DNA of 64,000 nucleotides. Source: an uncultured Bacilli bacterium (GTDB taxonomy: Bacteria > Bacillota_I > Bacilli_A > RF39 > UBA660). The stretch spans positions 79,341 to 143,340 of the forward strand of contig CAKPCH010000001.1 in assembly GCA_934141535.1 (NCBI GenBank), written 5' to 3'. Shown here in pieces: positions 2,777 to 62,241 of the stretch. A program made the position numbers and the translations under genes. The notes beneath the pieces were generated by a model that made no database searches, was not told where the DNA came from, and saw only the letters and a list, made by a program, of their open reading frames with translations. Numbering within the stretch: the first letter of the stretch is position 1; the number at the start of each line of letters is the position of its first letter.

Positions 2777-4018
2777 TTAATTATTTAAATCTCCTACTCC
2801 TGATGTAAATGAATTAACTAAATCATTAAATTTTAATAAATTGTTTGCTAAATCATTTTTATCAGATTCATATTTCATTTTATCAAGACTAAGTTGATTT
2901 CTCTCTTCATCAAGAGAATCTTTTTGTGCTCTTAAAGTATCTTCAATATGACTTAATTCTTCTCTTCTTTCATCATATGCAGATTGTACTTCTTTCTTTA
3001 TAGAATTAATTCTTTCTTGTTCTTCATTCTTATATTTTTCAAAATCTGCTTTTTCTTTTTCTAATGTTGCCTGTAAAGTTTTTAATGTACTAAGTCTTTT
3101 TTCAATTTCTTCTTTTTTCTCAGTTAATTTATTTAAAACTTCCTCTTTATATTTATTTATTTCATCAAATTGATTTTTTTTAGAATTTTCTATTTCTGAT
3201 TGTAATTTTTTTAATTCATTAAATCTAGAATCTATTTTATCTTTCATTTCAGTATTTTTTCTAAATATATCAGAAGCATCTTTTACATTTAAGTTAACTT
3301 TATCAAATAACTCATTTATGTCTGTACTTTCAAGTTTTTGTTCTTTATACTCAGTTAATTTATTTAATTCTTCTATTGGAGTATTAGACATTACAATTTT
3401 TGGTTCTTCTTTTATAATTGGTTCTTCAACCTTAGGTTCTTCTACTTTTACCTCTTTTATTTCAGGAACTTCTTTTTTTACTGGTTCTTCTTTTGGTTTC
3501 TCTGGTACTATAGGTGCTTCATTTACAACAGTTTGTTCTATTCTAAATGGATTATCTACAATCTCCTTTGCTTCTTCCTTAACCTCTTCTTTAACTGGAA
3601 TATGAGGAACTGGTTTTAATACTTCATTTACTAAAGATTCTTGAGTTTCGTTATTTAAAGTATTATTTATAGACTTATTTACTGGCTCATCATATTTTAC
3701 TTCATTATTTATTAAACCAAATGAATTATTATTTAAATCAACTACACTATCATCCTTAAAATCAGGATTATATAAATCATTTGTATATTCTATATTACCA
3801 AAAGGATTAAAGTTTGGATCAAAGCCATTATTATTAAAATTATTTGTATTATCACTAGTAGTATTTACTTCATTACCACTATTATCTGTTCCAAATAAAT
3901 CTTCATTTTCATAATTACTTTCACCAAGTCCACTTATAGTATCATACTTAAATCCATCACTAGCAACTTCTTCACTAGGTCCAAATCCATAAACTTCTGT
4001 ATCAAATTGATTTTTCAT
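2777..4018 (-). CDS. Lys/Glu-rich coiled-coil protein with an N-terminal N/D/F-rich low-complexity region and KEEP/VKEE-type imperfect repeats
   Basis: 413-aa ORF. The heptad-like K/E-rich C-terminal half is consistent with coiled coil. Repeats include EKPKEEPVKKEVPEIKEVKVEEPKVEEPIIKEEPKIV. Confidence 0.5.
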   Translation of the reverse strand: MKNQFDTEVYGFGPSEEVASDGFKYDTISGLGESNYENEDLFGTDNSGNEVNTTSDNTNNFNNNGFDPNFNPFGNIEYTNDLYNPDFKDDSVVDLNNNSFGLINNEVKYDEPVNKSINNTLNNETQESLVNEVLKPVPHIPVKEEVKEEAKEIVDNPFRIEQTVVNEAPIVPEKPKEEPVKKEVPEIKEVKVEEPKVEEPIIKEEPKIVMSNTPIEELNKLTEYKEQKLESTDINELFDKVNLNVKDASDIFRKNTEMKDKIDSRFNELKKLQSEIENSKKNQFDEINKYKEEVLNKLTEKKEEIEKRLSTLKTLQATLEKEKADFEKYKNEEQERINSIKKEVQSAYDERREELSHIEDTLRAQKDSLDEERNQLSLDKMKYESDKNDLANNLLKFNDLVNSFTSGVGDLNN

Positions 4019-6959: not shown

Positions 6960-7713
6960 AACAAAATGTTCTTTTAAATGGTTCTATAATAAATATTAAA
7001 GATGAAAATATAAAATTTTATGAAAATTGTTTAGAAAATGTTAATATTAATGGAATTGATACTAAAATTTTTAAAGGTTATCTTAATTATAAACCATTTT
7101 ATTGTCCTAATTGTGGCGTTATTAATGAATCTAGTGATGATATTATTAAATGGGATTGGAAACTTAATTGTAAAGTTATTTTACCTAAAATTTTTAATTA
7201 TAATACTATCCTTATGTTAGATAAATAAAGATTTTATTGTAAACATTGCCACTGTACTTTTATTGCTGAATCTAATGAAATTAATAAGTACTGTAATATT
7301 TCTAATAATACTAAACTTTCTATTAATCTTGATTTAATGAATAAGATTAGTGAAAAAGATATTGCTTTTAGAAACAAAGATATTGATTTATTTATTAAAA
7401 TTATTTCTTCTAAACATAATAATATTTCAGATTATATGAAAACTACTCTTAAAACTTATAATGAATTTAAACCATTTATTATTAATTCGCTTAAATTTGA
7501 ATATAACAACGGACTTATTGAAGGAACAAATAACTTAATTAAATATATTAAAAGAATTGCTTCGATTTTAAATCTTTTTATCATTTCAAAATTAGAATTT
7601 TACTTATTATTGGTATTTATAAATATGCATAATAAAAAGGAAGTCCGAAGACCTCCTATCAATCTCATTTATCATTAGTTTTTGGTTCCGCCAACACTAT
7701 TTGACAAAGAGCC
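6960..7713 (+). mobile_element. ISL3-family insertion sequence remnant. The transposase is truncated and internally deleted, the right inverted repeat is present, and the left end is missing.
   Basis: Frame-2 translation gives an ISL3 transposase N-terminal zinc finger (KPFYCPNCG ... FYCKHCHC). This is followed almost directly by the ISL3 C-terminal signature FEYNNGLIEGTNNLIKYIKR. An in-frame TAA lies at 7226-7228. The terminal inverted repeat ggctctttgtcaaatagtgttggc is the reverse complement of 7690-7713. Confidence 0.65.
6962..7678 (+). pseudogene. ISL3-family transposase pseudogene: no start codon, an in-frame stop at 7226, and the DDE catalytic domain deleted
   Basis: Only ~235 codons remain of a family normally ~430 aa. 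The zinc-finger N-terminus and the extreme C-terminus are joined with the DDE core absent. Confidence 0.6.
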
Positions 7714-8002: not shown

Positions 8003-10717
8003 CTATTTTATCAAAGATGATGAGATTGTTATAACTGGACGGACACCAGGATCGCTCGCATAGCTGACGGCGCCGCAGCTCAAGCCGCCGCTACAGTGAA
8101 CAAACCACGCGTAGCTAGAGTCATCAGCATCAGGTGTTATTGTCCAATAACCATATACTCCTGATACTGGATGTGCTGTATCTATCAAATAATCATATAG
8201 CCATGTTGATAAACCTGAAATATATGAATTATTAAATGTTTTTCCAGAGGCAGTGGCTATTTGACTAGCACTTGGAAAACTCACTTCTACTCCTTCTTTA
8301 TTAAATATTTCCTTTATATGGCCTAAATAATCTTTTCCTGTTGGAGCATTTGAACCTGTTGCTGTTATATTTTTACATGTTGTGTTATCTGTTCCTCCAT
8401 CTGTACACCAAGCTAATCTATATGGTACATATGAATCTGTAAAATTTTCTTTCATGATTAAACTTACATTATCTTCTGAATTTCCAAGTACAAAGAATGT
8501 ATTACTATAACTATCTCCTACATCGCATGTATATTCATCTCCGTAATTAAAACTTCCACTTGGTACATTACCTGTTGTTGCTTCTGTTACTGGATTACAT
8601 ATTGGAGGTGCTACTAATGATGATTTAGGCACTTCTATTACTGGACGAACTCCATAGCTAGTACTACTAACATTACTTTTATTAAATTGGCCCAGAAAAT
8701 ATACATACCATGCATAATTTGTATTTGTACCAGCAGATGAAGAAGCTGTCCAATAGCCATACGTTCCATCAATATCGCCGTTATTTAAACAACCATAAGA
8801 TGTACAAGTTTTCATTGTTCTATCATATAGCCAACCATAACTACATCCTGTTGTATTACCATATTTACATGTATCACTTTGTCTCGTAAAATTTGTATCA
8901 AAAAAGTAATAATTAATAGTATTAGTAGCTTCATTAAAAGTTGAATAACCTGTAATTTTAGCTATTTCATTTGCCGTTATAAGTCTTGCATTAAAATTAG
9001 AATAATCTACTGTATAATTTGCTTGAGATGCTTGTGATGACTGATCAACAGTATAATTTGAAGGAGTATTAGTCCCCTTCCAACCGCTTGTATCTGTTTT
9101 AAGTTGCGTTAGTAACGTACTAGGTCCTGATCCAATACTTCCAGTTGAATTCCAAGCAATTTTTGCTGTTGTATTGTGATCCAATATTAAATTAATATTA
9201 TCTCCACCATCATCGTTAAATGCATAAAACTTCATACATCCTGATTTTACTCCTGTAGCGCTCTGTGATGCAGTATAATTCGTACAAACTTTTCCAGTAT
9301 CTACATTGAAATATACTACTTCTCCATTTGTGTAGTGTTTTGGTGCCTCTTTGATTATAATATCACCATTAACTCTCGGTACAGTCAATAGTTTAGTAGT
9401 CTCATCATATAGGTAATCCGTTCCTCTTGTTAATGCCACATCTCCCATAATAACTCTAGGAACAGATAAATTTATAGTTGCTGTATATTTATTACCTTCT
9501 ACCACTTCATTGATACAATCTGTACATGTCACTCCATCATATGTTACTTTAAATATTTGCTTATAGTTAAATTCTATATTAAAACTTTGTGGATCACTAG
9601 TTACTAAACTTTCGTCTATTCCATCTTTATATTTTATTGTTATATATATTTTTTTAGTTACACCATTTGTACAGTTATCATCATCACATACTGGCATTAC
9701 CTCACCATTATTATAGCCATCTATTGTATAATCTAAAACACTGTCAGATTTGAATGAAGATTTAGGAATTGTTATTACTGGACGGATTCCATTTTCAAGG
9801 CTTACAAAGTTAGCAGTCAAGGAACCATTCGAACCCATAATTCGTGCACCATAAGTGGCATTTTCAACAGGGGTAGATGTCCAATAACCAGTTACATCTG
9901 ATACTGGATGAATTGTTCCATCTAAATAATCATATAGCCATGTTGGTAACATCTCTTCTTCGTTCCCTCCCGCAGCATATAACTGATCATATGTTGGCAA
10001 CGTTATTTGTGTCTGAGATAAATTTGTCCAAGTTAATGTATAAGCTCTTAAAGCTTTATTTGCTGTTATTGGTCCTTTAGTATTATTACCATTGTCATAA
10101 TTTGTTCCTCCTGCTGCTATATAGTCTTCTTGTGTTACCCATGCAACTTTTGATTTGTCTGTTGATGATGCTGTAACTATATTACCATCACTTCCTACAT
10201 TTGCATTTAAAATTAAGCTTACATTATCACCAGAGTTTTCTACTACAAAGAATGTTTTAGGTGTACCATCTCCTACATCACATATGTATTCATCTCCTGG
10301 ATTATAATTACCATCAGGTAAATATCCTAATGTAGGATTTGTTACTGGAGTACATATTGGAGATTGTGTAAGTGCTCCCATTTTTACATTACCCAAGTTT
10401 GTTATATCTACTTCATATTTTACAGTTGAATTCTTATTTGGTAATACTATATCTCCAAATATATTAGATACGTTATATTCTTCAGTTCTTGCTATAGCGT
10501 TATTATCTGTAGAACTTACTCTAATACCAGTTAATCTTACTGTCTTATCTATTCTTATCATAGCTATATTTTTCATAACTAAACTTGCGCTAAATGAAGC
10601 AAATCCTATGGTTAAAGTTGTTACTAAAATAAAAATAGTAATAATTAACCCTTGGGTTAATTTCTTACTATTAATATTTTTGAAATTGTTAAAACCATAA
10701 TTGTCTTTTCTTTTCAT
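8003..10717 (-). CDS. large (904 aa) secreted/surface protein with a SipW-cognate-type signal peptide, an N-terminal TasA-like beta-module, Ig-like middle modules and three DUF1566/Fib_succ_major-like lectin-type modules each ending in G(V/I)RPVI
   Basis: N-terminus ...LTQGLIITIFILVTTLTIGFASFSASLVMKN has a charged n-region, an h-region and the AAF-like FASF motif. Repeated module ends are NGIRPVITIPKSSF, YGVRPVIEVPKSSL and PGVRPVITISSSLIK. The modules contain YWTSTP...AWYV hallmarks of the DUF1566 family. It is the last gene of the tasA-sipW-DUF5305 operon. Confidence 0.8.
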   Translation of the reverse strand: MKRKDNYGFNNFKNINSKKLTQGLIITIFILVTTLTIGFASFSASLVMKNIAMIRIDKTVRLTGIRVSSTDNNAIARTEEYNVSNIFGDIVLPNKNSTVKYEVDITNLGNVKMGALTQSPICTPVTNPTLGYLPDGNYNPGDEYICDVGDGTPKTFFVVENSGDNVSLILNANVGSDGNIVTASSTDKSKVAWVTQEDYIAAGGTNYDNGNNTKGPITANKALRAYTLTWTNLSQTQITLPTYDQLYAAGGNEEEMLPTWLYDYLDGTIHPVSDVTGYWTSTPVENATYGARIMGSNGSLTANFVSLENGIRPVITIPKSSFKSDSVLDYTIDGYNNGEVMPVCDDDNCTNGVTKKIYITIKYKDGIDESLVTSDPQSFNIEFNYKQIFKVTYDGVTCTDCINEVVEGNKYTATINLSVPRVIMGDVALTRGTDYLYDETTKLLTVPRVNGDIIIKEAPKHYTNGEVVYFNVDTGKVCTNYTASQSATGVKSGCMKFYAFNDDGGDNINLILDHNTTAKIAWNSTGSIGSGPSTLLTQLKTDTSGWKGTNTPSNYTVDQSSQASQANYTVDYSNFNARLITANEIAKITGYSTFNEATNTINYYFFDTNFTRQSDTCKYGNTTGCSYGWLYDRTMKTCTSYGCLNNGDIDGTYGYWTASSSAGTNTNYAWYVYFLGQFNKSNVSSTSYGVRPVIEVPKSSLVAPPICNPVTEATTGNVPSGSFNYGDEYTCDVGDSYSNTFFVLGNSEDNVSLIMKENFTDSYVPYRLAWCTDGGTDNTTCKNITATGSNAPTGKDYLGHIKEIFNKEGVEVSFPSASQIATASGKTFNNSYISGLSTWLYDYLIDTAHPVSGVYGYWTITPDADDSSYAWFVHCSGGLSCGAVSYASDPGVRPVITISSSLIK

Positions 10718-10727
10718 ATTTTATCAC

Positions 10728-11855
10728 CTATAAATCAACGCTTTTTACATAATATATATATAATACTTTACCATCCTTTACATAAAAGCAACATTTTTCA
10801 CTATTTATTTTAACATACATAATTGGTATTTTTAAATTATCTCTAACATCAAGTAATTCTTGAAATTTAGTAATCTTATATACGTCATGCTCTTTTAAAT
10901 CAGGTATACGATTAGTTTCAACTATTGTTCTATCATAATCATTTAATAATTTATTAACATAACTATTGTATTTATCTTTTTTTGGAAGTAATACTACTAA
11001 TAGTTTTATTAAATATATGAAACTTGCTAATCCTAATAATATTAATATTATGCCAGCTACAAAGAATGGTTTATTACCTATCATAGCACTTACAGTCTTT
11101 GTAGCACTACCATTTTTATTTGTATTTGATGCATCTATATTTATATTAATTTGTCTTGTTGAAAGTGGTATTGTTAAAGTAGATGAACTTGAATTGTTAT
11201 AATCTATACCAAATGCACTTTCTTTACCTAATGTATTTGTAATTAATTTAATAATTAATTTACTATCACAACTTACACCATATGTACTTTTAAATGTATT
11301 TGCTAAGTCATTATATTTATTATAATCAATTGCTATTGTTTTATCTAATGAATATCCACTAGCACTGTTTTCTAACCCTTTAACATTATCTTCTAATACA
11401 TAATCTTTTGTATATAGTATTTTACCTGAATTCCCTTCCGGAGTAATAACAAGGCTTGCTACTATTTTATAATCATGATTAATTGTAGATGTTCTATTTA
11501 CCATAAAATTATATTTAAATGTTACATTAATATAGTCAATTAAACTTGCTATATAAGTCATATTCTCATCCAAATATGGTGCTTCATAGAAGTCATTTGG
11601 TTTTAAATAAACTTTGTAACCTGTACTACTACTTTCTTGATAATTTACATAAACGTTCTTATTTCTATCTATTGATAAATTAATAAACATTACTGAGGTA
11701 ATTATCATGACTATAGTGAGAATTAAAGAGAAAGTAATTCTTGCGTTAAAGCTAATATATCTTTCTTTTTTCTTCTTTACAATTTTTTCAGTTACTTTCA
11801 CTTCTTCGTTATTAGTTTTCTCACTTTCTTTAATTATGTTTCCCTTTTTTTCCAT
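10728..11855 (-). CDS. DUF5305-like accessory membrane protein: an N-terminal TM anchor, a ~230-aa extracytoplasmic domain and a C-proximal TM
   Basis: 375 aa. TM helices at ~38-58 and ~268-290 (FFVAGIILILLGLASFIYLIKLLVVLL). Its position immediately downstream of sipW matches the sipW/tasA-associated DUF5305 genes of Clostridia. The family name is assigned from memory, not from a search. Confidence 0.55.
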   Translation of the reverse strand: MEKKGNIIKESEKTNNEEVKVTEKIVKKKKERYISFNARITFSLILTIVMIITSVMFINLSIDRNKNVYVNYQESSSTGYKVYLKPNDFYEAPYLDENMTYIASLIDYINVTFKYNFMVNRTSTINHDYKIVASLVITPEGNSGKILYTKDYVLEDNVKGLENSASGYSLDKTIAIDYNKYNDLANTFKSTYGVSCDSKLIIKLITNTLGKESAFGIDYNNSSSSTLTIPLSTRQININIDASNTNKNGSATKTVSAMIGNKPFFVAGIILILLGLASFIYLIKLLVVLLPKKDKYNSYVNKLLNDYDRTIVETNRIPDLKEHDVYKITKFQELLDVRDNLKIPIMYVKINSEKCCFYVKDGKVLYIYYVKSVDL

Positions 11856-11870
11856 CTTAATCTCTCCTTT

Positions 11871-13001
11871 TTACAATTCGCTTAGCATTACTGTTGGATA
11901 TCCTATAAAAGGTATTTGAACATTAACTATTCCCTTTATCATATCTTCAGTTATCTTATATCCATCTTGACTTGCATTAGCATCACCTTTAGTATAGAAA
12001 TAATGTTCACCATCTATATCAAGCACCTTAACAACTCTATGAACTATTACTTTATTTTCATACTCATAAGCAACTATGTCCCCTACTTTAATTTTATCGT
12101 AGTCTTTATCAATTTTCTTAATAATAACAACTGCTCCTCTATCAAATGTAGGACTCATTGATCCACTAGCAATCGCTACTGCTGTATATTTGAAATAACC
12201 ACTTGTAAAATAAGTAAGTACAACTACAAGTCCGAATAACAACGCATAAGAAATTATATTTATTTTATTATTACTTCTTGTCATTACCTCTTCGTTTAAT
12301 ACATCTTTAAATTCTCTTAATAATATTGTAAATAATATTATAGGAACTAACAAGTCAAATATTGACTTCATATATTCACTAAAGTTTGGAACTATAGGAA
12401 GTAAATAACTATATACACCAAGTACTAATCCAAGTAATAATGATGGCTTATAACCAGCATTTAAGCATATATACGTCTTACATAAATTACGTGCTATACT
12501 TGGAAGTAAATATAACCCAACAAACACTAATATGTTATATACTGAATCAAAATCAGCATAATATATAGTATTTGTTACATCAACAGTAATCAAAAGTATA
12601 GTCGTAAAAATTATTAATAATATATTTCCTTCGCTTTTCTGTAACAATTGATATCTTAAAAACTCACTTAATATTATAACTAATACTGTAGGAAGTATAA
12701 ACGTTGTAAATGATTTAAAAGTATAATAATTGTTATTATAAGCAAATCCTGAAAAGAAACCTATTATGTAATATATAACTAATACTATAATCAAATATAT
12801 TAATATTGATTTCATTACATTTGAACTGTTTTGGTGTTTATCTTTTTCAAAATTAAAATTAATTTTAAAAATGATAAGCGCTAAAACCATAAATAAAACA
12901 ATATAATAATTGCTTAGTATATTTTTAAAGAAACTGTTAAAAAGTAAAACTAAAAACAATGTTAATTCAATTATTAATATTTTCAAATAACTTTTTTTCA
13001 T
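11871..13001 (-). CDS. sipW: ER/archaeal-type signal peptidase I (SipW family, S26B) fused in-frame to an N-terminal ~240-aa polytopic (about 6-TM) membrane domain
   Basis: C-terminal 137 aa: MTRSNNKINIISYALLFGLVVVLTYF (TM), then SGSMSPT (catalytic Ser box), VGDIVAY, VHRV (catalytic His), TKGDAN and QIPFIGY. This is collinear with B. subtilis SipW. There is no stop codon between the membrane domain and the peptidase domain across 376 codons, in a genome where stops are frequent. Confidence 0.8.
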   Translation of the reverse strand: MKKSYLKILIIELTLFLVLLFNSFFKNILSNYYIVLFMVLALIIFKINFNFEKDKHQNSSNVMKSILIYLIIVLVIYYIIGFFSGFAYNNNYYTFKSFTTFILPTVLVIILSEFLRYQLLQKSEGNILLIIFTTILLITVDVTNTIYYADFDSVYNILVFVGLYLLPSIARNLCKTYICLNAGYKPSLLLGLVLGVYSYLLPIVPNFSEYMKSIFDLLVPIILFTILLREFKDVLNEEVMTRSNNKINIISYALLFGLVVVLTYFTSGYFKYTAVAIASGSMSPTFDRGAVVIIKKIDKDYDKIKVGDIVAYEYENKVIVHRVVKVLDIDGEHYFYTKGDANASQDGYKITEDMIKGIVNVQIPFIGYPTVMLSEL

Positions 13002-13924: not shown

Positions 13925-14893
13925 ATGAAAAGAAAGATGAAAAAAAGACCTATATTTATTTTAATTTTTATAATTATATTTATAATTGTTGTAATAAGTT
14001 TTATAGTAAGAACTATTAATTATCATAAAACTTATGACTATAAGCTTGGAAAACAAGGTTTTAATAAAGAAGAAATAGTAGAACTAAAAAAACTAAAAGA
14101 TGATACATTAAACTATTTACTTACTATTACTTATAATAAAGATATAGTAAATATAATTAAAGAAAAATATTTCTTAGAAAAAAACTTAAGTAAATATATA
14201 ACTTATTTAGAAAAAAATAAAGATAAAGATATATCTGATATAATTTCTATTGTTAATGTGGGCGCAGATAATGATTTTTATACCAATACAAAGAAAACTG
14301 ATACTAATAAAGGTATACTTATGTTAACAAATAAGTATTATGGTTTAGATGAAACATATGATGATACAACTATGAAAGAAATAAGTTCTACTTATAGTTA
14401 TGGAAGTGATCAAATGTTAGTACCAGAAGCACTTAATGCATTTATTAATATGTTTAAAGCTGCAAAAAAAGAAAATCTAACATTAATTATAAACTCCTCA
14501 TATAGAAGTTATAAAGATCAAGATGAAGTTTATAATAAATATAAAGATACTAAAGGAGAAGAATATGCAGATTCAATAGCAGCCCGTCCTGGTTATTCAG
14601 AACATCAAACAGGACTTGCCATTGATATTCAAACATATGGTTCAAGAGCCGCTACATTTGAAGAATTCGATGAATTTAAATGGTTACAAAATAATGCTCA
14701 TAAATATGGTTTTATATTAAGATATCCTAAAGATAAAGAATATTTAACAGGTTACTCATATGAGTCATGGCATTATAGATATGTTGGAATTAGTGCTGCT
14801 ACATATATTAAAGAAAATAATATAACATTTGATGAATATTATGCATATTTTATAGAAGGTAAAGAAAATGAAAAAGAAACGACTAAAAATTAA
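13925..14893 (+). CDS. membrane-anchored D-alanyl-D-alanine carboxypeptidase, VanY/peptidase M15B family (paralog 1 of 3)
   Basis: N-terminal TM (PIFILIFIIIFIIVVISFIV). C-terminal M15B motifs ARPGYSEHQTGLAIDI and SWHYRYVG. RBS aatggtgataatATG. Confidence 0.8.
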   Translation: MKRKMKKRPIFILIFIIIFIIVVISFIVRTINYHKTYDYKLGKQGFNKEEIVELKKLKDDTLNYLLTITYNKDIVNIIKEKYFLEKNLSKYITYLEKNKDKDISDIISIVNVGADNDFYTNTKKTDTNKGILMLTNKYYGLDETYDDTTMKEISSTYSYGSDQMLVPEALNAFINMFKAAKKENLTLIINSSYRSYKDQDEVYNKYKDTKGEEYADSIAARPGYSEHQTGLAIDIQTYGSRAATFEEFDEFKWLQNNAHKYGFILRYPKDKEYLTGYSYESWHYRYVGISAATYIKENNITFDEYYAYFIEGKENEKETTKN

Positions 14894-16028
14894 AAAATTA
14901 ATATTATTTATACTTATAGTTTTAATAATACTTATATTATTAGTTTTATTTAATCATAAAAATAATAAAGATTTAAAATCTATTGGTTATAATGAACTAG
15001 AAATAAGTTCAATAGAAAAACTAACTAAATCAGAAATAAATGAAATAAGAAAATATAAATATAATAAAAATATAATATATATAATAGAAAGTGAAAACTA
15101 TAATCCAAATAAAATAAAATATTATTTAAAAGGAATTAATGAAAATAAAAAAATAGATTACTTAAAAATATTTAATTTAATAAATGATGATGAATTTAAA
15201 GAAAATAATTTTGATATATATTTAAATTTATTAAATAAATATGATAATTATAAAGGTATTTTAAAATATGTAAATGATTATTCTAGTAATAATATAAAGC
15301 TTGATAACACAACACTTTCATTTATAGAACAAGAATATTTTATTATAGATTACTTAGATAGATATATAAATTATTATAATGATAATAAAAATTTAGATTT
15401 TAAAGAAATAGTAACACGTGTTAATTCTAATCTAGATTATAAATTTTATGATGATTCTAAAGAAGCTGATTTATCTAAAGGAATGTATACTTTAGTAAAT
15501 AAATTCTATTATTTAGGCAAAGATTATGTACCAGATGATTTAGAAGTAATAGATGGTATATATGCAAGAGATAGTGCTAAAGCTGTTAAAGTTGCAGCTA
15601 CTACATTTAAAAAAATGGCTGATGATGCAAGGAATGAAGGCTTAACTATAAAAGTTACAACAGGATATAGAAGTTATAATTTTCAATCCACTTTATATAA
15701 TAACTATGTTAAAATAGATGGTGTAAAAGAAGCTGATACCTACTCTGCTCGACCTGGTTATTCAGAACATCAATTAGGATATTCACTAGATTTAACAAAT
15801 GCTAAAAACGTAGGATTTAGAGATTTTGATAAAACAAAAGAATATGAATGGTTAAGTAAAAATGCATATAAATATGGATTTATACAAAGATATCCTAAAG
15901 ACAAAGAATATTTAACAGGATATATGTATGAATCATGGCATTATAGATATGTTGGTGATGATATAGCAAAATATATCTATGAAAATAACTTAACATACGA
16001 AGAATATTATGCCTACTTTAAAAGATAG
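14868..16028 (+). CDS. membrane-anchored VanY/peptidase M15B family D,D-carboxypeptidase (paralog 2) with a long N/K-rich N-terminal extension
   Basis: SARPGYSEHQLGYSLDL and ESWHYRYVG motifs, and an N-terminal TM. The start overlaps the previous gene by 26 nt. Confidence 0.8.
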   Translation: MKKKRLKIKKLILFILIVLIILILLVLFNHKNNKDLKSIGYNELEISSIEKLTKSEINEIRKYKYNKNIIYIIESENYNPNKIKYYLKGINENKKIDYLKIFNLINDDEFKENNFDIYLNLLNKYDNYKGILKYVNDYSSNNIKLDNTTLSFIEQEYFIIDYLDRYINYYNDNKNLDFKEIVTRVNSNLDYKFYDDSKEADLSKGMYTLVNKFYYLGKDYVPDDLEVIDGIYARDSAKAVKVAATTFKKMADDARNEGLTIKVTTGYRSYNFQSTLYNNYVKIDGVKEADTYSARPGYSEHQLGYSLDLTNAKNVGFRDFDKTKEYEWLSKNAYKYGFIQRYPKDKEYLTGYMYESWHYRYVGDDIAKYIYENNLTYEEYYAYFKR

Positions 16029-16068
16029 TAAATGCTATCTTTTTTTCATATAATATAATGGTGATAAT

Positions 16069-16701
16069 ATGGAAAAAATAATTTATATAATATTATTATT
16101 AATATTAGAAAAAGATTTTTATACTAATATTAAAACAATAAAAAAAGTAGATTTAACTACTATAGTTAATAAAAATAATAAATTAGAAAAAAACTATGTT
16201 CCAGATAATCTAGAATACATAGATTTAAAATATTCTTGCAAAGATAAAATGCTTGTAAGTGTAGCACGTAAACAATTTGAAAAACTTGCTAAAGATGCTT
16301 CTATTGAAGGATATAATATAATAGCAGTTTCTGCTTATAGAAGTTATGATTATCAAGAAAAACTATATAATAATTATGTTCTTCTTAAAGGAAAATATAT
16401 GGCAGATGTAGCAAGTGCTAGAAGTGGACATTCAGAACATCAAACAGGCCTTGCTGTTGATGTTTCTGATATTACACTTGATTATGATAACTTTGAAAAA
16501 ACTAAAGAATTTACTTGGATGAAAAATAATGCATATAAATATGGATTTATACTAAGATACCCTAAAGCAAAATTTCATATTACAGGATTTAAATATGAGC
16601 CATGGCATTATAGATATGTTGGTAATGTTGTAGCACAAATAATACATAGTAAAAATATAACTCTAGAAGAATATGAAAAAGAGTTAAGAAATAACTCTTA
16701 A
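16069..16701 (+). CDS. VanY/peptidase M15B family D,D-carboxypeptidase (paralog 3, shortest)
   Basis: SARSGHSEHQTGLAVDV and EPWHYRYVG motifs. It uses the same aatggtgataatATG start context as paralog 1. Confidence 0.8.
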   Translation: MEKIIYIILLLILEKDFYTNIKTIKKVDLTTIVNKNNKLEKNYVPDNLEYIDLKYSCKDKMLVSVARKQFEKLAKDASIEGYNIIAVSAYRSYDYQEKLYNNYVLLKGKYMADVASARSGHSEHQTGLAVDVSDITLDYDNFEKTKEFTWMKNNAYKYGFILRYPKAKFHITGFKYEPWHYRYVGNVVAQIIHSKNITLEEYEKELRNNS

Positions 16702-17401: not shown

Positions 17402-18319
17402 TTAAAATCCTCTTGAGGCGCCTCCACCACCAGATGAACCACCGCCTCCACTAAATCCACCTGATGAAAATCCACTACTTCCTCCACTAAAGAATCCACC
17501 AGTATACATTGAATCTGACGTTTTAATAAGCCCAGATATAAATAAAATAGGGTTAAATGGGAAAATGAGTGTTATTAAATTTATATTATTGGAAGACATT
17601 CCAAATATAAATAATATTATATATATAATAATATAAGATAAAATAGATAAAACTTTTACCTTACCAAAAGTATACTTTCTAATTAAATATCCAAATAATA
17701 AACCAATTAAAGCACCTATAATAGCTAGTGCAAATGAACTATCACTACTTGTACTAGGTACTGCTTCATTATAAGGAATATCTAAATTATTTAATTTAAC
17801 TATTTCAGAATAAAAAGCATCATATCCATTTTTTATTCCTTCATCAAATTTATCTTCTTTTAAATAAGGAATAATATATTCATCTATTAATCTACCAGTT
17901 TTACCATCTGGAAGAATACCTTCTAATCCATACCCTACTTCTACTCTAAACTTTCTATCTTCATATGAAAGTAATAATAAAAGTCCATTATTTTTAGAAC
18001 TATCCCCTATTTTAAAGTTTCTAAACAATTGTAAAGAATAATCTTCTATAGATAAACCTTCTAAATTTTTTACTGTAACAACTACTATTTGAGTACCATC
18101 TGCACTTTCAATTTTTTGACTCTGATTAATTATATAATTTTTAGTATCACTACTTAATATATTAGCATAATCATTAACATAAAAATCATTAGTAGGACTT
18201 ACTATAGCACTTACTTTAACTATAAATAATACATTAAATAAAATAAGAAGGATTAAATAATTTTTAATCCTATTCAAACGAAACATTTGGAACCTCATTA
18301 GCAGTACTCTTTGATTCAA
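17402..18319 (-). CDS. TPM-domain (YgcG/DUF477-type phosphatase-like) membrane protein with a Gly-rich C-terminal tail
   Basis: Signal/TM at the N-terminus. TPM core YVNDYANILS...IVVVTV...LLLLSYEDRKFRVEVGYGLEG. C-terminal TM and GGFSGGGGSSGGGG tail. It sits downstream of LemA, the classic LemA-TPM pair. Confidence 0.7.
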   Translation of the reverse strand: MNQRVLLMRFQMFRLNRIKNYLILLILFNVLFIVKVSAIVSPTNDFYVNDYANILSSDTKNYIINQSQKIESADGTQIVVVTVKNLEGLSIEDYSLQLFRNFKIGDSSKNNGLLLLLSYEDRKFRVEVGYGLEGILPDGKTGRLIDEYIIPYLKEDKFDEGIKNGYDAFYSEIVKLNNLDIPYNEAVPSTSSDSSFALAIIGALIGLLFGYLIRKYTFGKVKVLSILSYIIIYIILFIFGMSSNNINLITLIFPFNPILFISGLIKTSDSMYTGGFFSGGSSGFSSGGFSGGGGSSGGGGASRGF

Positions 18320-52639: not shown

Positions 52640-54667
52640 TTAATTTAATTCTGATTTAGGAATTGTTATAACTGGACGAATGCCATCATAGTTGGCATCG
52701 ACATCTTGACTATATAATGACCCATCACCTGTCACATCATAAGCTCTCGCATAATTTCCAGTAGAATCCTCAGAATACATAGAATATGAAATGGTCCAAT
52801 AACCAAATACTTCTGATACTGGATGAGTTGCTTCCTCTAAATAATCATGTAGCCATGTTGGTAAATTTTCTAACAAATCATCATTGTCAACATCAACAGT
52901 TAAACCTAAAGCATTTGCTATCTGATCTGCTGTTGGTAATGTTATTTGAGATATATTTGTCCAAGCCGATGTATATTCTTTCAATGCATTAGTAACTGTT
53001 ATTGGTCCTTTATTAGTTCTAATATATCTATTCCAATCACTTTCTGTCCCTCCGGCAGCTATATAATCTTCCTTTGTTACCCATGAAACTGTTGATAGAT
53101 TCGTTGAAGATGATGTTACTGCTTTACCATCTATTCCTACATTTGCATTCATTATTAAACTTACATTATCTCCTGAAGTTTCTAGTACAAAAAATGTTTT
53201 TGAGTCACCATCGCCCACATCACATGTATATTCATCTCCATAAGCATAATTTCCTGTTGGAACACTACCTGTAGTTGCGGTTGTTACTGCTTTACATATA
53301 TAATTTGAACCTTCACTAATTGTGATATCCCCATTAACATTAGGTATTGTTAACAATTTAGTAGCTTCATCATATGTATAATCTATATCTTTTGTTAATA
53401 TTATATCTCCCATAACAATACTTGGAGTACTTGAATTTATAGTTGCTGTATATGTATTACCTTCTATCGATTCTGTATTACAATTAGTACAAGTTATTCC
53501 ATCGTATGTTACTTTAAATATTTGTTTGTAATCAAATCCTATATTAAAAGTTTGTGGTTCACTAGTTACTAAACTGTCACTTATTCCATCTTTATATTTT
53601 ATTGTTACATATATCTTTTTAGTTGCACCATTTGTGCAGTTGTCACCATCACATACTGGTATTGCTTCACCATTACTATAACCATCTATTGTGTAATTTA
53701 AACTAGTATCTGCTCCAAATGCTGATTTAGATATTTTTATTACTGGACGAACACCGTAACTTCTAGAATCACTGACGGAGGGGGTGCCGCCGTTCAAATA
53801 GCCGTTATAGTGAACAATCCACGCGCTGCGAGAGAAATTACCAGGCGTTATTGTCCAATAGCCACTTACGCCTGTTACTGGATGGGTTGTTTTATCTAAA
53901 TAATCATATAGCCATGTTGGAAAACTAGAACTTTTATTTCCTGCTGCTTTATATATTTGAGCTTTTGCAGGAAAACTTACTTCTACTCCAGATTTATTAA
54001 ATATACTTTTTATATGTCCTAAATAATCTTTACCATCAGGAGCATTACTTCCAGTTGCGGTTATATTTTTACAAGTTTTATGACTGGAACCACCATCTGT
54101 ACACCAAGCTGTTGTTTTAGGTACATAAGAATCTGTATAGTTTTCTTTCATAATTAAACTTACTGTATCTGTATTATTTTCTAGCACAAAGAATGTATTT
54201 GTATAACTATCTCCTACTTTGCATTTATATTCATCTCCATAATTAAAACTTCCAGTTGGTACATTGCCTGTTGTAGCTGTAGTCACTGCTGTACAGATTG
54301 AAGAGTGTGTAACTGGAGGAAGTGCTCCCATTTTTACATTACCCAAATTTGTTATATCTACTTCATATTTTACATATGAATCTTTACTTGGTAATACTAC
54401 ATCTCCAAATATATTAGATACGTTATATTCTTCAGTTCTTGATATAGCACCTCCATTTGTAGAATTTACTTTTATACCAGTTAATCTTACTGTTTTATCT
54501 ACTCTTATCATAGCTATATTTTTCATAACTAAGTTTGAACTAAATGAAGCAAATCCTATAGTTAAACTTGTTACTAATATAGCACATATTACTATTAAAT
54601 ATTTTGAGATCTTTTTTCTCTTTATAAAACTAAAATTATTAAATCCATAATTATTTTTATGCCTCAT
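52640..54667 (-). CDS. large (675 aa) SipW-cognate-signal-peptide surface protein with two DUF1566-like modules and Ig-like middle modules
   Basis: N-terminus YLIVICAILVTSLTIGFASFSSNLVMKN. The N-terminal module is shared with the other giant paralogs (VDKTVRLTGIKVNST...VKYEVDITNLGNVKMGAL). Module ends YGVRPVIKISKSAF and DGIRPVITIPKSELN. Confidence 0.8.
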   Translation of the reverse strand: MRHKNNYGFNNFSFIKRKKISKYLIVICAILVTSLTIGFASFSSNLVMKNIAMIRVDKTVRLTGIKVNSTNGGAISRTEEYNVSNIFGDVVLPSKDSYVKYEVDITNLGNVKMGALPPVTHSSICTAVTTATTGNVPTGSFNYGDEYKCKVGDSYTNTFFVLENNTDTVSLIMKENYTDSYVPKTTAWCTDGGSSHKTCKNITATGSNAPDGKDYLGHIKSIFNKSGVEVSFPAKAQIYKAAGNKSSSFPTWLYDYLDKTTHPVTGVSGYWTITPGNFSRSAWIVHYNGYLNGGTPSVSDSRSYGVRPVIKISKSAFGADTSLNYTIDGYSNGEAIPVCDGDNCTNGATKKIYVTIKYKDGISDSLVTSEPQTFNIGFDYKQIFKVTYDGITCTNCNTESIEGNTYTATINSSTPSIVMGDIILTKDIDYTYDEATKLLTIPNVNGDITISEGSNYICKAVTTATTGSVPTGNYAYGDEYTCDVGDGDSKTFFVLETSGDNVSLIMNANVGIDGKAVTSSSTNLSTVSWVTKEDYIAAGGTESDWNRYIRTNKGPITVTNALKEYTSAWTNISQITLPTADQIANALGLTVDVDNDDLLENLPTWLHDYLEEATHPVSEVFGYWTISYSMYSEDSTGNYARAYDVTGDGSLYSQDVDANYDGIRPVITIPKSELN

Positions 54668-54810
54668 ATTTAATTCATACCCTTCTTATATAGTTTACCA
54701 CATATTACTATTTTTTACATTCATTATTGTTATATTTATATAAAAATATTCTTCATTATATTATTATCTTATCACACACAAAAAAACAAGTAATATTTTT
54801 GTAAATTACC
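54668..54810. promoter_or_regulatory. conserved upstream leader cassette (copy 3)
   Basis: Near-identical to 60824-60960 over ~130 bp. It includes the AT-rich near-palindrome atatttatataaaaatat and a -10-like tataat. Confidence 0.4.
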
Positions 54811-58108: not shown

Positions 58109-60823
58109 TTAATTTATTAAATCTTTTGAAATAGTTATTACTGGACGGACACCATACTCGCTAGAATCGTTAACGTTAGAATAATACAAAATATTAGAAT
58201 TATCACCACTCCATGCAACGTTATTAATAGCAGCATTAGGCGTTGTTGTCCAATAGCCATATACTCCTGATACTGGATGTGCTGTATCTATTAAATAATC
58301 AGATAACCATTCTGGTAAACCTCTAATATAATTTTCATCGTCAAATGACTTACTAGAAGCAGTGGCTATTTGACTAGCACTTGGAAAACTCACTTCTACT
58401 CCTTCTATATTAAATATACTTTTTATATGACCTAAATAGTCTTTTCCAGTAAGAGCATTAGATCCAGTCGCTGTTATATTTTTGCAAGTTGTATTATCTT
58501 CTCCTCCATCTATGCACCATGCCAAAGTTTTTGGGACATATGAATCTGTGAAATTTTCTTTCATGATTAAACTTACTGTATCACTAGAATTTTCTAATAC
58601 AAAGAATGTATTGCTATAGTTGTCGCCTACCCGACAAGTGTATTCATCTCCATAATTATAACTTCCACTCGGTACATTGCCTATTATTGCTTCTGTTACT
58701 GCTTTACATCCATATTCTTGAGGTGCTACTACTGACCTAGGTACTTCTATTACTGGACGTAAGCCTATACTACCACCATATATATCATAAGTAGACATTG
58801 AATAATCTGTCATTACTGTATACACTGAATTAGTATCTAATACAAACTGTGTAGCGGTCCAATAGCCTAGATCTGAAGTTCCAGATAACCATTGATAATT
58901 ACAGCCTGTTGTAATATCAGTTTCAGTTTCTTCATCATATTTGCAAGTATCACTTGGTTCAGATGTATTAGTATCAAAATAGAATACTCCTTCTTCATCT
59001 GTAGATACATCAAAAGATGTATTACCAGTAATTCTAGCTACTTCTTCTGCTGTTATTAATCTTGCTTTATATCCTGTATAATCTATTGTATAATTAGGAT
59101 GACTATAATTTGTTGGAGTTAATGTACCTTTCCAAGACGATGTGTCAGTTTTTAATTGATCTAATAAAGAGGTAGGACCATTTGTAACATCATCACTATC
59201 ATTCCAATCTATAAGTTGCGTGGTATTATGATCTAATATCAGATTGACTTTATCTCCACCATCATCATTGAAAACATAAAATTTCATACATCCTGATTTT
59301 ACTTCTGTTTCACTTTGAGATTCAGTGTAATCTGTACAAACTTTTCCAGTATCTACATTAAAATATACAATTTGGCCATTAGAAATTTTTCCAGTGTCTT
59401 CTTTGACCTCTTCTTTAATTGTAATATCGCCATTAACATTAGGGATTGTTAATAGTTTAGTGGTTTCATCATATGTATAGTCAGTATCTTTTGTTAATAA
59501 TGTATAACCCATTGTTACTCTAGGATTTGTTAAACTAATAGTTGAAGTATAAGTATTGCCTTCTACTACTTCACTTATACAATCTGTACAAGTTACTCCA
59601 TCATATGTTACTGTAAATATTTGCTTATAATCAAACCCTATATTAAAACTTTGTGGTTCACTAGTTACTAAACTTTCATCTATTCCATCTTTGTATTTAA
59701 TTGTTACATATATTTTTTTAGTTACACCATTTGTGCAGTTATCACCATCACATACTGGTATTACATCACTTTTATTATAATCATCTATTGTATAATCTAA
59801 ATTATTATTTAAGCCAAACTGTAATTTTGATAAAGTTATAACTGGGCGTACTCCAATACCAAGATCACTAGCTACAGTACTTCCATATCCTAAATGTTCT
59901 GTCGAAATAGTTCCATTTTCAACACAATATGCATAAGTTTTTGAAGCATCTAATAATTTAGAAGTCCAATAACCTAAGACCTCATCAACAACATGTTTAT
60001 TTTCAAACGCAGAATCATATGCTGTATAATCATATAGCCATATTGGTAAACCTGACATTTTATCGCCTGCTGCTGTAGATACTTGATCTCTTGTTGGCAG
60101 TGTTATTTGAGATGATGATATATTTGTCCAAGTTGATGTATATTCTCTCAATGTTTTATTTGCTGTTAATGGGCTCATATTAATATTTTCATTCCATTCA
60201 CTTTCTGTTCCTCCTGCAGCCAGATAATCTTCTTTCGTTAACCAAAATACCTTTGATTTATTTGTTGAAGATGATGTTACCATTTTTCCATCTGTTCCTA
60301 CATTTGAATTCATTATTAAACTTACTGTATCTCCTTTGTTTTCTAATACAAAGAATGTTTTTTCTTCACCATCTCCTACATCACAAATATATTCGTCACC
60401 AACTACAAATTTTCCTTCTGGTACATTACCAGTTGTTGCTGTAGTGGCTGGCATGCATATTTGATTAGAAGTAAGAGCACCCATTTTTACATTACCCAAG
60501 TTTGTTATATCAACTTCATATTTTACATATGAATCTTTACTCGGTAATACTACATCTCCAAATATATTAGATACGTTATATTCTTCAGTTCTTGATATAG
60601 AATTGCCACTTGTAGAATTTACACTAATTCCTGTTAATCTTACTGTCTTATCTACTCTTATCACAGCTATACTTTTCATAACTAGGTTAGCACTCGATGC
60701 AGCAAATCCTATAGTTAAACTTGTTACTAATATAGCACATATTACTATTAAATATTTTGAGATCTTTTTTCTTTTTATAAAACTAAAATTATTAAATCCA
60801 TAATTATTTTTTCTATGCCTCAT
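58109..60823 (-). CDS. large (904 aa) SipW-cognate-signal-peptide surface protein with three DUF1566-like modules; mosaic paralog of 8003-10717 and 52640-54667
   Basis: N-terminus YLIVICAILVTSLTIGFAASSANLVMKS. Module ends IGVRPVITLSKLQF, IGLRPVIEVPRSVV and YGVRPVITISKDLIN. The middle module YFNVDTGKVCTDYTESQSETEVKSGCMKFYVFNDDGGD is shared with the 8003-10717 paralog. Confidence 0.8.
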   Translation of the reverse strand: MRHRKNNYGFNNFSFIKRKKISKYLIVICAILVTSLTIGFAASSANLVMKSIAVIRVDKTVRLTGISVNSTSGNSISRTEEYNVSNIFGDVVLPSKDSYVKYEVDITNLGNVKMGALTSNQICMPATTATTGNVPEGKFVVGDEYICDVGDGEEKTFFVLENKGDTVSLIMNSNVGTDGKMVTSSSTNKSKVFWLTKEDYLAAGGTESEWNENINMSPLTANKTLREYTSTWTNISSSQITLPTRDQVSTAAGDKMSGLPIWLYDYTAYDSAFENKHVVDEVLGYWTSKLLDASKTYAYCVENGTISTEHLGYGSTVASDLGIGVRPVITLSKLQFGLNNNLDYTIDDYNKSDVIPVCDGDNCTNGVTKKIYVTIKYKDGIDESLVTSEPQSFNIGFDYKQIFTVTYDGVTCTDCISEVVEGNTYTSTISLTNPRVTMGYTLLTKDTDYTYDETTKLLTIPNVNGDITIKEEVKEDTGKISNGQIVYFNVDTGKVCTDYTESQSETEVKSGCMKFYVFNDDGGDKVNLILDHNTTQLIDWNDSDDVTNGPTSLLDQLKTDTSSWKGTLTPTNYSHPNYTIDYTGYKARLITAEEVARITGNTSFDVSTDEEGVFYFDTNTSEPSDTCKYDEETETDITTGCNYQWLSGTSDLGYWTATQFVLDTNSVYTVMTDYSMSTYDIYGGSIGLRPVIEVPRSVVAPQEYGCKAVTEAIIGNVPSGSYNYGDEYTCRVGDNYSNTFFVLENSSDTVSLIMKENFTDSYVPKTLAWCIDGGEDNTTCKNITATGSNALTGKDYLGHIKSIFNIEGVEVSFPSASQIATASSKSFDDENYIRGLPEWLSDYLIDTAHPVSGVYGYWTTTPNAAINNVAWSGDNSNILYYSNVNDSSEYGVRPVITISKDLIN

Positions 60824-61791: not shown

Positions 61792-62241
61792 ATGATTAAT
61801 GAAGTTATTAGTAAAAATATTATATATATAGATAAAAACAATTCTATTAAAGATGCTTCTATTTTAATGAAAAAGAATAATATTGGTTTTCTACCTATTA
61901 AAGATGATAATAAATATATTGGAGTTATTACTGATAGAGATATATGTCTTAGTCTTAGTAGTATTAAAAGTATTGATGATAAAGTAACTGATTATATGAC
62001 TAAAGATATTATATATATAAATTATAGTTTTACTTTTGATGAAGCTTTAGATACTATGGCTCATTTTAAAGTTAAAAGATTATTGGTAAAAGAAAAAGAT
62101 AATGTTATTGGCATATTATCTTTATCTGATATTATTAAATATTATAGTTCAAATAAAATTATTAATACTATTAAAACTATTTTTTATATTCATGATAGTA
62201 TAAATTATAATAGTAGTGAAATAGATGAATTTTATCTTTAA
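61792..62241 (+). CDS. CBS-domain pair protein
   Basis: Two CBS motifs (VIS...IIYIDKNNSIKDASILMKKNNIGFLPI and VTDYMTKDIIYI...HFKVKRLLV). 149 aa. Confidence 0.7.
   Translation: MINEVISKNIIYIDKNNSIKDASILMKKNNIGFLPIKDDNKYIGVITDRDICLSLSSIKSIDDKVTDYMTKDIIYINYSFTFDEALDTMAHFKVKRLLVKEKDNVIGILSLSDIIKYYSSNKIINTIKTIFYIHDSINYNSSEIDEFYL

What the first reader, a model, noticed from the sequence alone, without database searches (positions are those of the whole stretch)
8041..8110. GC-rich NNC-codon patch at the C-terminal tip of a DUF1566-like module, resembling a diversity-generating retroelement variable region
In a genome whose codons are overwhelmingly A/T-ending, the last ~20 codons before the terminal GVRPVI of the 8003-10717 protein read tgt agc ggc ggc ttg agc tgc ggc gcc gtc agc tat gcg agc gat. 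Ten of 15 codons end in C, and local GC is about 65%. DGR variable regions sit at the C-terminal tip of CLec/FGE-like folds, and DUF1566 domains are a known DGR target class. Adenine-specific mutagenesis of AAC-rich template repeats produces exactly this NNC codon signature. The homologous position in the 52640-54667 paralog (next finding) differs mainly by A<->G changes. No reverse transcriptase or template repeat is present in this window, so the diversifier would have to act in trans or be lost.
Basis: partly seen in the sequence, partly recalled or inferred. Interest (0 to 1): 0.7.

Follow-up and report, generated by a model that had tools for sequence, protein, structure and literature searches.

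The report
Retroelement-written variable patch in adhesin gene
The GC-rich patch is the variable region of a diversity-generating retroelement (DGR) target, a lectin-like binding tip whose codons were rewritten by adenine-specific reverse-transcriptase mutagenesis; the reverse transcriptase and template lie outside this window, so it is a remote or orphaned target of a known kind of system.

The parts
8036..8131 (-). A3 variable region (VR). This 96-nt span is collinear with the template repeats of related DGRs and reads GAT GCT GAT GAC TCT AGC TAC GCG TGG TTT GTT CAC TGT AGC GGC GGC TTG AGC TGC GGC GCC GTC AGC TAT GCG AGC GAT CCT GGT GTC CGT CCA.
   Evidence: It has 0 A at 56 never-A TR columns, is identical to the TRs at 25 of 27 invariant non-A columns, and is randomised (G11 A8 T5 C4) at 28 always-A columns.
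8035..8047 (-). Conserved GC-rich 3' end of the VR (GGT GTC CGT CCA G), in the position an IMH would occupy. In related cassettes, TR and VR are identical up to ...CCAG and diverge right after it (VR: TTATAAC..., TR: ATT(T)CC...).
   Evidence: The strain-variable tract stops exactly here: the last difference is at 8048.
8003..8620 (-). A3 module: the C-terminal 205-aa C-type-lectin-fold (Lcl_C/DUF1566-like) domain that carries the VR.
8003..10717 (-). Gene A: a 904-aa secreted protein with three CLec-like modules. Only the last module (A3) is 'hot'; A1 (9773-9889) and A2 (8636-8758) have compositionally ordinary tips.
8048..8300 (-). Strain-variable tract. All 49 differences between this window and five metagenome copies of the same species fall here: 30 in the VR core, 19 upstream, and one codon indel.
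53744..53839 (-). B1 VR-like patch in paralog B (gene 52640-54667), with the same NNC/GC signature. It sits mid-protein, is not collinear with A3 (indels), and is nearly invariant among strains.
58142..58237 (-). C3: the 'cold' counterpart of A3 in paralog C (gene 58109-60823). It keeps the same GGT GTC CGT CCA 3' end but has an AT-normal tip. It serves as an internal control.
   Evidence: A3/C3 identity is 0.82 upstream, 0.53 in the patch and 0.78 downstream.
10728..13001 (-). Upstream operon context: a DUF5305 protein (10728-11855) and an archaeal-type/SipW-like signal peptidase I (11871-13001). This suggests SipW-dependent export of A rather than the pilin route used by most homologs.

Best explanation
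Window 8036-8131 is the variable region (VR) of a DGR target gene. The last module of protein A is a C-type-lectin-fold, DUF1566/Lcl_C-like binding domain. Its solvent-facing tip is encoded by codons copied from an A-rich template repeat (TR, mostly AAC/AAT codons) through an RNA intermediate. A DGR reverse transcriptase misincorporates opposite template adenines. AAC therefore becomes NNC, while scaffold codons that lack adenine (GCG TGG, GTT, GGC, TTG, GTC, GGT GTC CGT CCA) are copied faithfully. In a 24%-GC genome this leaves an A-depleted, C-ending, GC-rich island. The machinery in this clade is a chromosomal cassette of MutS-like gene, bAvd, RT and TR, and it often serves several scattered targets. 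It is not in this window, so A3 is a remote (trans) target. Shown here: the signature, codon-level collinearity with real TRs, the fold, active cassettes in relatives, and allele replacement confined to the 3' end of gene A in a clonal species. Inferred: that A3 itself was written by such a cassette (about 0.9). Unresolved: whether a cognate TR/RT still exists in this genome (about 0.5). Paralog gene conversion demonstrably also moves these tips around in this species.
For: The composition is an outlier. A TR predicted from four VRs in two MAGs was then found almost base for base in L014/L017. Complete cassettes with homologous targets exist: L016 target-ORF-avd-RT(RVT_1, E 1.8e-16)-TR; L017 target-TR-MSL-bAvd-RT; L019/L020, L041-44 and L045-48 MSL-bAvd-RT-TR-target. 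Within the TR-homologous span, VR/TR mismatches fall on TR adenines: 16-23 at A against 0-2 elsewhere in each of the six intact cassettes; the RT-less L014 copy gives 21 at A against 5-7 elsewhere. L019 and L020 have an identical TR and differ at 22 VR sites. A3 is collinear with six TRs, with 0 of 56 A at never-A columns, 25 of 27 matches at invariant non-A columns, and randomised always-A columns. The cold paralog C3 scores 18 of 27 and has 5 A. The two A3 alleles in clonal strains differ at 28 collinear sites: 21 in always-A columns, 5 in mixed columns and 2 in never-A columns (Fisher p = 9e-10; p = 9e-7 using codon positions 1-2 only). The fold is CLec and closest to Lcl_C and to the DGR proteins TvpA, Mtd and TaqVP. 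Several hot VRs on separate contigs of one MAG show that trans targets occur in this clade. The literature describes MSL+Avd architecture, the DUF1566/CLec2 VR class and remote targets of non-phage DGRs (PMC5758913).
Against: No RT, Avd, MSL, TR or DGR-associated RNA was found in the 64-kb window or in about 14 kb of flanks from the same species. The alternative A3 allele is identical in five samples. The B1 VR is identical in the window and two other strain loci (L051, L052), and a hot-looking VR in the gene beyond the right end of the window (P0003) is identical in five loci. The strain-variable tract (8048-8300) overruns the roughly 100-nt TR span by about 170 nt and carries a 1-codon indel. 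The hot-looking VRs of this species are not collinear with each other, so one TR cannot serve them all.
Confidence: 0.85

Rival explanations
1. Orphaned relic. The patch was written by a DGR in an ancestor, but the cassette has since been lost from this species. The VR tips are now frozen and change only when homologous recombination or gene conversion swaps 100-300-bp tracts between the many paralogous modules. This rival shares the DGR origin and differs only on the present mechanism.
For: One A3 allele is fixed in five samples. The P0003 VR is identical in five loci; the B1 VR is unchanged in L051/L052 and differs at only 8 sites in L049/L050. The A3 allele difference spans 253 nt, 19 differences lie outside the TR-homologous span, and there is a codon indel. 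Paralog conversion is directly visible elsewhere in the same strains: about 20 differences per 100 bp at 54448-54547 and at 60601-60700. L014 shows that the cassette can be deleted, leaving a TR/VR hybrid next to polA. The species' VRs are not collinear.
Against: A3 is as pristine as VRs next to live cassettes: no adenine at 56 scaffold columns and 25 of 27 scaffold matches, whereas the cold paralog C3 has decayed. No donor for either allele was found in the sequence held. The strains differ by at most 0.05% elsewhere, so there has been very little time for a DGR to fire. Relatives with about 79% nt identity in polA (L014 and its cassette-bearing near-twin L017) or in LDH (L045) keep intact cassettes.
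Confidence: 0.4
2. Not DGR-related. The GC-rich island is a horizontally acquired or gene-converted fragment from a GC-rich donor, or it results from selection for a Gly/Ser/Cys/Ala-rich loop encoded by GC-rich codons.
For: The patch encodes many G, S, A and C residues. No RT or TR is present locally.
Against: Ser is encoded here by AGC, not by the genome's usual AT-rich choices, and C-ending codons occur at 14 times the background rate. The patch matches DGR TRs codon for codon, with randomisation only at the TR adenine columns. The same signature sits at the same position in homologs that lie next to verified TR/RT cassettes. A different GC-rich peak of the window (17409-17468) has low adenine (0.17) but only 4 NNC codons per 28.
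Confidence: 0.03
3. Assembly or sequencing artefact, such as a chimeric join at a repeat.
For: Many metagenome assemblies break in or just after gene A. L021/L022 look chimeric.
Against: The reading frame, the conserved scaffold residues and the downstream sequence are intact. The upstream 2.4 kb of gene A is 99.96-100% identical in independent assemblies. The alternative allele is reproduced in five independent assemblies.
Confidence: 0.01

Closest known systems
Legionella pneumophila DGR (target LdtA): Architecture D (MSL + avd + RT), VR class CLec2/DUF1566 (Wu et al. 2018, PMC5758913)
   Same: The cassettes in the relatives use the same accessory set: a MutS-like small protein plus Avd plus RT. 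The VR sits at the C-terminal tip of a DUF1566/Lcl_C-type CLec fold and ends ...G(V/I)R(P/C)V. TR codons are AAC/AAT-rich.
   Different: The hosts are low-GC gut Bacilli rather than Legionella. The targets are type IV pilin-like proteins or, in this window, SipW-type multi-module secreted proteins, not an outer-membrane lipoprotein. No cassette lies next to the target in this window.
Treponema denticola TvpA DGR with seven remote targets (as summarised in PMC5758913)
   Different: TvpA is of the FGE-sulfatase subtype, and A3 is closer to Lcl_C. For this window the RT/TR has not been located.
Bordetella phage BPP-1 DGR (Mtd/avd/TR/brt), the paradigm
   Different: BPP-1 is phage-borne with a single adjacent target and no MSL gene. 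The IMH and hairpin requirements were not tested here.
Bacteroides DGRs that diversify type V pilus adhesins (bioRxiv 10.1101/2024.11.15.621889)
   Same: Gut commensals use DGRs to vary the adhesive tips of pilus-associated proteins.
   Different: The phylum, the pilus type and the RT lineage all differ. I saw only the abstract.
Pilin antigenic variation by gene conversion from silent cassettes (Neisseria pilE/pilS; own knowledge)
   Same: Short tracts are copied between paralogous surface-protein genes. This is seen here at 54448-54547 and 60601-60700, and probably at 8048-8300.
   Different: It does not generate an NNC/A-depleted signature and needs no reverse transcriptase. Here it would only reshuffle tips that a DGR wrote.

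Membership tests
DGR target (variable region) | A TR copy in the same genome that differs from the VR only at TR adenines | tested here: inconclusive
   There is no extra copy in the window (blastn) or in about 14 kb of same-species flanks. The rest of the genome is not available. As a proxy, A3 against six homologous TRs behaves exactly as a VR should.
DGR target (variable region) | A DGR-clade reverse transcriptase encoded in the genome (usually within about 10 kb, but remote targets are known) | tested here: not met
   This was tested only for the window. tblastn with the L016 RT finds nothing. Pfam on all 44 ORFs of 150 aa or more that lie outside larger ORFs finds no RVT_1, bAvd or MutS_I. 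It is not testable genome-wide with the remaining caps.
DGR target (variable region) | Adenine-depleted VR with NNC/NNT codons at variable sites and faithful scaffold codons | tested here: met
   15 of 28 codons are NNC against a mean of 1.06, and A is 0.12 against 0.42. There are 0 A at 56 never-A columns and 25 of 27 scaffold matches.
DGR target (variable region) | VR located in the ligand-binding tip of a C-type-lectin (or Ig) fold, near the C-terminus | tested here: met
   [not shown]
DGR target (variable region) | Conserved 3' boundary (IMH-like) shared with the TR, after which VR and TR diverge | tested here: met
   GGT GTC CGT CCA G occupies 8047-8035, in the same register as GGN GTN CGN CCA G in all TR/VR pairs, and TR and VR diverge right after CCAG. 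Function was not tested.
DGR target (variable region) | Hypervariability between or within strains that is confined to the VR and to TR-adenine positions | tested here: inconclusive
   Two alleles exist in clonal strains. In the VR core, 26 of 28 variable sites lie on always-A or mixed columns. However, 19 further differences lie upstream of the TR span, there is one codon indel, and one allele is fixed in five samples.
DGR target (variable region) | Homology to targets of verified DGR cassettes | tested here: met
   The same domain and the same VR scaffold sit next to MSL-bAvd-RT-TR in L016, L017, L019/20, L041-44 and L045-48.
Pfam Lcl_C / DUF1566 (PF07603) | HMM match above the gathering threshold | tested here: not met
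   Only the middle module (residues 558-693) matches, at 25.9 bits against a cut-off of 34.9. A3 has no Pfam hit.
Pfam Lcl_C / DUF1566 (PF07603) | Fold of the Legionella Lcl C-terminal domain | tested here: met
   [not shown]
Type IV pilin-like DGR targets (N_methyl, PF07963), the architecture of most homologs | N-terminal prepilin cleavage/methylation motif | tested here: not met
   Proteins A, B and C have no N_methyl hit. They lie in an operon with a SipW-like signal peptidase and DUF5305. Most of the best-scoring homologs do carry PF07963.

The most novel reading that the evidence does not exclude
Two-tier diversification. A single chromosomal MSL-bAvd-RT DGR elsewhere in the genome keeps rewriting one or a few collinear 'hot' tips such as A3. 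Frequent gene conversion then spreads the DGR-made tips, with 100-300 bp of flanking sequence, across a large paralog family. That family spans two different export systems: type IV pilin-like proteins and SipW-dependent multi-module fibres. The repertoire of surface lectins would then be far larger than the set of direct DGR targets.
Probability: 0.25. Interest if true: 0.6.

Novelty: new member of a known kind. Interest (0 to 1): 0.4.

Why it matters
It shows that a sharp GC/NNC spike in an AT-rich genome is a reliable, alignment-free flag for DGR variable regions, even when the retroelement is tens of kilobases or more away. It adds SipW-type multi-module secreted proteins to the targets of a large DGR lineage in uncultured low-GC gut Bacilli: more than 3,300 RT homologs at E<=1e-10, mostly with type IV pilin-like targets. 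It also gives a concrete case in which DGR mutagenesis and paralog gene conversion can be separated. That matters for reading strain-level variation of gut-commensal adhesins in metagenomes, and it explains why assemblies fragment at these genes.

Tried and rejected
(1) A TR inside the window: blastn of both patches against the window finds only the paralogous modules.
(2) An RT inside the window: tblastn with the L016 RT and Pfam on all large ORFs find none. The Rfam E-value scan of the whole window finds no DGR-associated RNA.
(3) Viral origin: no relative of the target domain and no scaffold match in IMG/VR.
(4) Genome collection: only six loci from two MAGs, at 40-44% identity. The source species is not retrievable there.
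(5) Picking this species' RT out of more than 3,300 homologs by contig count or contig length: P0163 and P0241 turned out to be other species. The listing of cluster members gives no sample names. Proteins of the window's own species seem not to be returned by the homology search: the 905-aa ortholog in L026 was not listed. Absence of its RT therefore means little.
(6) PriA as an anchor failed because the wrong start codon was used.
(7) A donor paralog for either A3 allele: none in the sequence held.
(8) A TR remnant between polA and gene D, the position syntenic to the L014 TR: the interval holds only a kinase-like ORF.
(9) The three-hairpin element found downstream of hot targets in L010, L014, L016 and L017: absent from the window.
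Full report
**Observation.**
Gene 8003-10717 lies on the minus strand and encodes 904 aa. Window 8037-8096 is the most GC-rich 60-mer in the whole window, at 0.68 against a mean of 0.243 (sd 0.074). The homologous position in paralog B (53771-53830) is second at 0.58.

Only 3.8% of codons in the window's ORFs end in C. A 28-codon frame in A3 holds 15 such codons and a frame in B1 holds 14. The mean is 1.06 (sd 1.26), and the next best of 17,298 frames holds 7. Adenine falls to 0.12 against 0.42.

The window holds nine modules ending GYWT...G(V/I)RPVI: three in A, two in B, three in C and one in D. Only A3 and B1 carry the signature. Against its closest paralog C3, A3 is 82% identical upstream, 53% in the patch and 78% downstream.

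**What the domain is.**
The 205-aa A3 module has about 270 homologs (E<=1e-5) in gut metagenomes. Most are 310-345-aa proteins with a type IV prepilin N-terminus (PF07963). Their alignment shows a fixed scaffold, GYWTxTPxxxxSxxAWxVxxxGxLxxxxVxxxxxxGVRPVITISKS. The x positions are filled mostly with the residues reachable from AAC by changing its first two bases.

**Finding the retroelement in relatives.**
The same GC/NNC spike is the top GC peak of every locus that carries a 'hot' homolog. Four such VRs come from two MAGs, labelled 'uncultured Bacilli' and 'uncultured Tenericutes UMGS688'. They were identical at scaffold positions and differed only at NNC codons. From them I predicted the template.

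A scaffold pattern scanned over the metagenome collection then returned two key loci:
- **L014:** an A-rich copy 300 bp downstream of a VR. It matches the predicted template almost base for base.
- **L016:** a complete cassette of target(VR), small ORF, avd-like ORF, RT (RVT_1, E 1.8e-16) and TR.

The RT has more than 3,300 homologs at E<=1e-10. Contigs for four of them show the same chromosomal cassette of MutS_I-like (MSL), bAvd, RT and TR beside a pilin-like target. These loci are L017, L019/L020, L041-44 and L045-48. The cassette sits among housekeeping genes such as FtsH, UDG, ParAB and rpsF-ssb-rpsR.

Inside the TR-homologous span, VR/TR mismatches are 16-23 at TR adenines against 0-2 elsewhere in the six intact cassettes. 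The RT-less L014 copy has 21 at adenines and a handful elsewhere. L019 and L020 are two strains with an identical TR, and their VRs differ at 22 sites. These are active, textbook DGRs.

They belong to the MSL+avd architecture and the DUF1566/CLec2 VR class described by Wu et al. 2018, which also documents remote targets for non-phage DGRs (PMC5758913). An Rfam RT-14 match (42.5 bits, below the gathering score) lies directly after the TR in L017.

**Placing the window's patch.**
A3 (8036-8131) is collinear, without gaps, with six TRs from these cassettes.

| TR column class | Number of columns | Window A3 | Cold paralog C3 |
|---|---|---|---|
| Never adenine in any TR | 56 | 0 adenines | 5 adenines |
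| Invariant non-A | 27 | identical at 25 | identical at 18 |
| Always adenine | 28 | G11, A8, T5, C4 | A14, T6, G5, C3 |

The VR ends with GGT GTC CGT CCA G (8047-8035). This is the point up to which TRs and VRs agree before diverging: VR TTATAAC..., TR ATT(T)CC. I therefore regard DGR origin of the patch as about 0.9 likely.

**Is a DGR acting on it in this genome?**
The window has no TR copy, no RT, no RVT_1, bAvd or MutS_I in any large ORF, and no DGR-linked RNA. About 14 kb of flanks from the same species add nothing.

The species is common in human-gut metagenomes (Hadza, MERR22 and others) and is remarkably clonal, with 0-7 differences per 6-11 kb. Against that background, all 49 differences between the window and L027 (13.9 kb) or L032 (10.5 kb) fall in 8048-8300. 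Thirty are in the VR core and 19 are upstream, and there is one codon indel.

Within the collinear VR core, the two alleles differ at 28 sites. Of these, 21 lie on always-A columns, 5 on mixed columns and 2 on never-A columns. Fisher p is 9e-10, or 9e-7 using only codon positions 1-2.

Four points argue against current activity:
- The tract overruns the roughly 100-nt TR span by about 170 nt.
- The other A3 allele is identical in five samples.
- The B1 VR is identical in the window and two other strain loci and differs at 8 sites in two more. A further hot-looking VR, in the gene for P0003 about 10 kb beyond the right end of the window, is identical in five loci.
- The same strains show clear paralog gene-conversion tracts elsewhere, at 54448-54547 and 60601-60700.

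No donor for either A3 allele is present in the sequence I hold. L014 shows that the cassette can be lost, leaving a TR/VR hybrid next to polA. I put about 0.5 on a cognate TR/RT still being present in this genome. The alternative (about 0.4) is an orphaned VR that is now only reshuffled by gene conversion.

**Limits.**
The homology search did not return this species' own ortholog of protein A, so the absence of its RT from the hit list carries little weight.

**Comparison and novelty.**
The mechanism and architecture match known DGRs. The closest are the Legionella LdtA type (MSL+avd, DUF1566/CLec2) and the Treponema TvpA system with its scattered targets. The new elements are the host clade, the pilin-like and SipW-type target architectures, and the visible interplay with paralog conversion. 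This makes it a new member of a known kind, of moderate interest.

Noticed in passing
window 54448-54547 and 60601-60700: In otherwise identical strains of this species, the N-terminal regions of genes B and C each show about 20 differences packed into 100 bp (B tract in L050 and L054; C tract in L052, L053 and L056). This looks like gene conversion between the A/B/C paralogs.
   Followed up: partly
window 10728-13001 and 62238-63872: An archaeal-type/SipW-like signal peptidase I (TIGR02228, above cut-off) and a DUF5305 gene lie directly upstream of gene A. A second DUF5305-like gene lies upstream of gene C. Proteins A, B, C and 51105-52538 share a TasA-like N-terminus instead of the prepilin motif of most homologs, which suggests SipW-dependent fibre or adhesin export.
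   Followed up: partly
window 7337-7678: An ISL3-family transposase fragment lies just downstream of gene A. Several metagenome assemblies break between it and the stop codon of A.
   Followed up: no
window 17409-17468: The third-highest GC peak (0.57) lies at the C-terminal end of the TPM-domain gene 17402-18319. It has low adenine (0.17) but only 4 NNC codons per 28, so it lacks the DGR signature. I did not translate it.
   Followed up: partly
L014 2735-3110 (minus strand): An A-rich TR has the same 5' flank as the L017 TR but a VR-type 3' end (GVRPVIEVLRSKLI*). It sits directly upstream of polA with no RT in the locus. This looks like deletion of the RT cassette by TR/VR recombination.
   Followed up: partly
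L017 8755-8860; also L010 about 815-925, L014 about 2900-3010, L016 about 2560-2630: A conserved element downstream of the stop codon of hot target genes is centred on CTTGTAATAGG. In L010, L014 and L017 it is about 110 nt long with three hairpins (RNA fold z = -6.5 for the L017 copy); L016 has a shorter copy with the first two hairpins. In L010 it occurs without a TR. It is absent from the window, and its function is unknown: it could be a terminator or a DGR target-recognition structure.
   Followed up: partly
L017 9036-9182: An Rfam RT-14 RNA match (42.5 bits, gathering score 48.1, E 2e-4) lies immediately 3' of the TR. It is probably the DGR spacer RNA. It was not detected at E<=0.01 in L016, L019, L041 or L045.
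   Followed up: partly
[not shown]
   Followed up: no
window 13925-16701: Three tandem VanY-type D-Ala-D-Ala carboxypeptidase genes lie on the plus strand.
   Followed up: no
L021/L022 versus window 53844-54798 and L025: Short low-coverage contigs join the N-terminal half of gene B (90-91% nt identity) to the C-terminal half and downstream region of the pilin-like gene for P0003. They are either assembly chimeras at the shared module or a real recombinant.
   Followed up: no
L032-L036 and L038 (just beyond the left end of the window): Type IV pilus machinery genes (a T2SSF/PilC-like gene and a prepilin peptidase A24 gene) lie 1-3 kb left of window position 1. This fits the pilin-like DGR targets elsewhere in this genome.
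   Followed up: no
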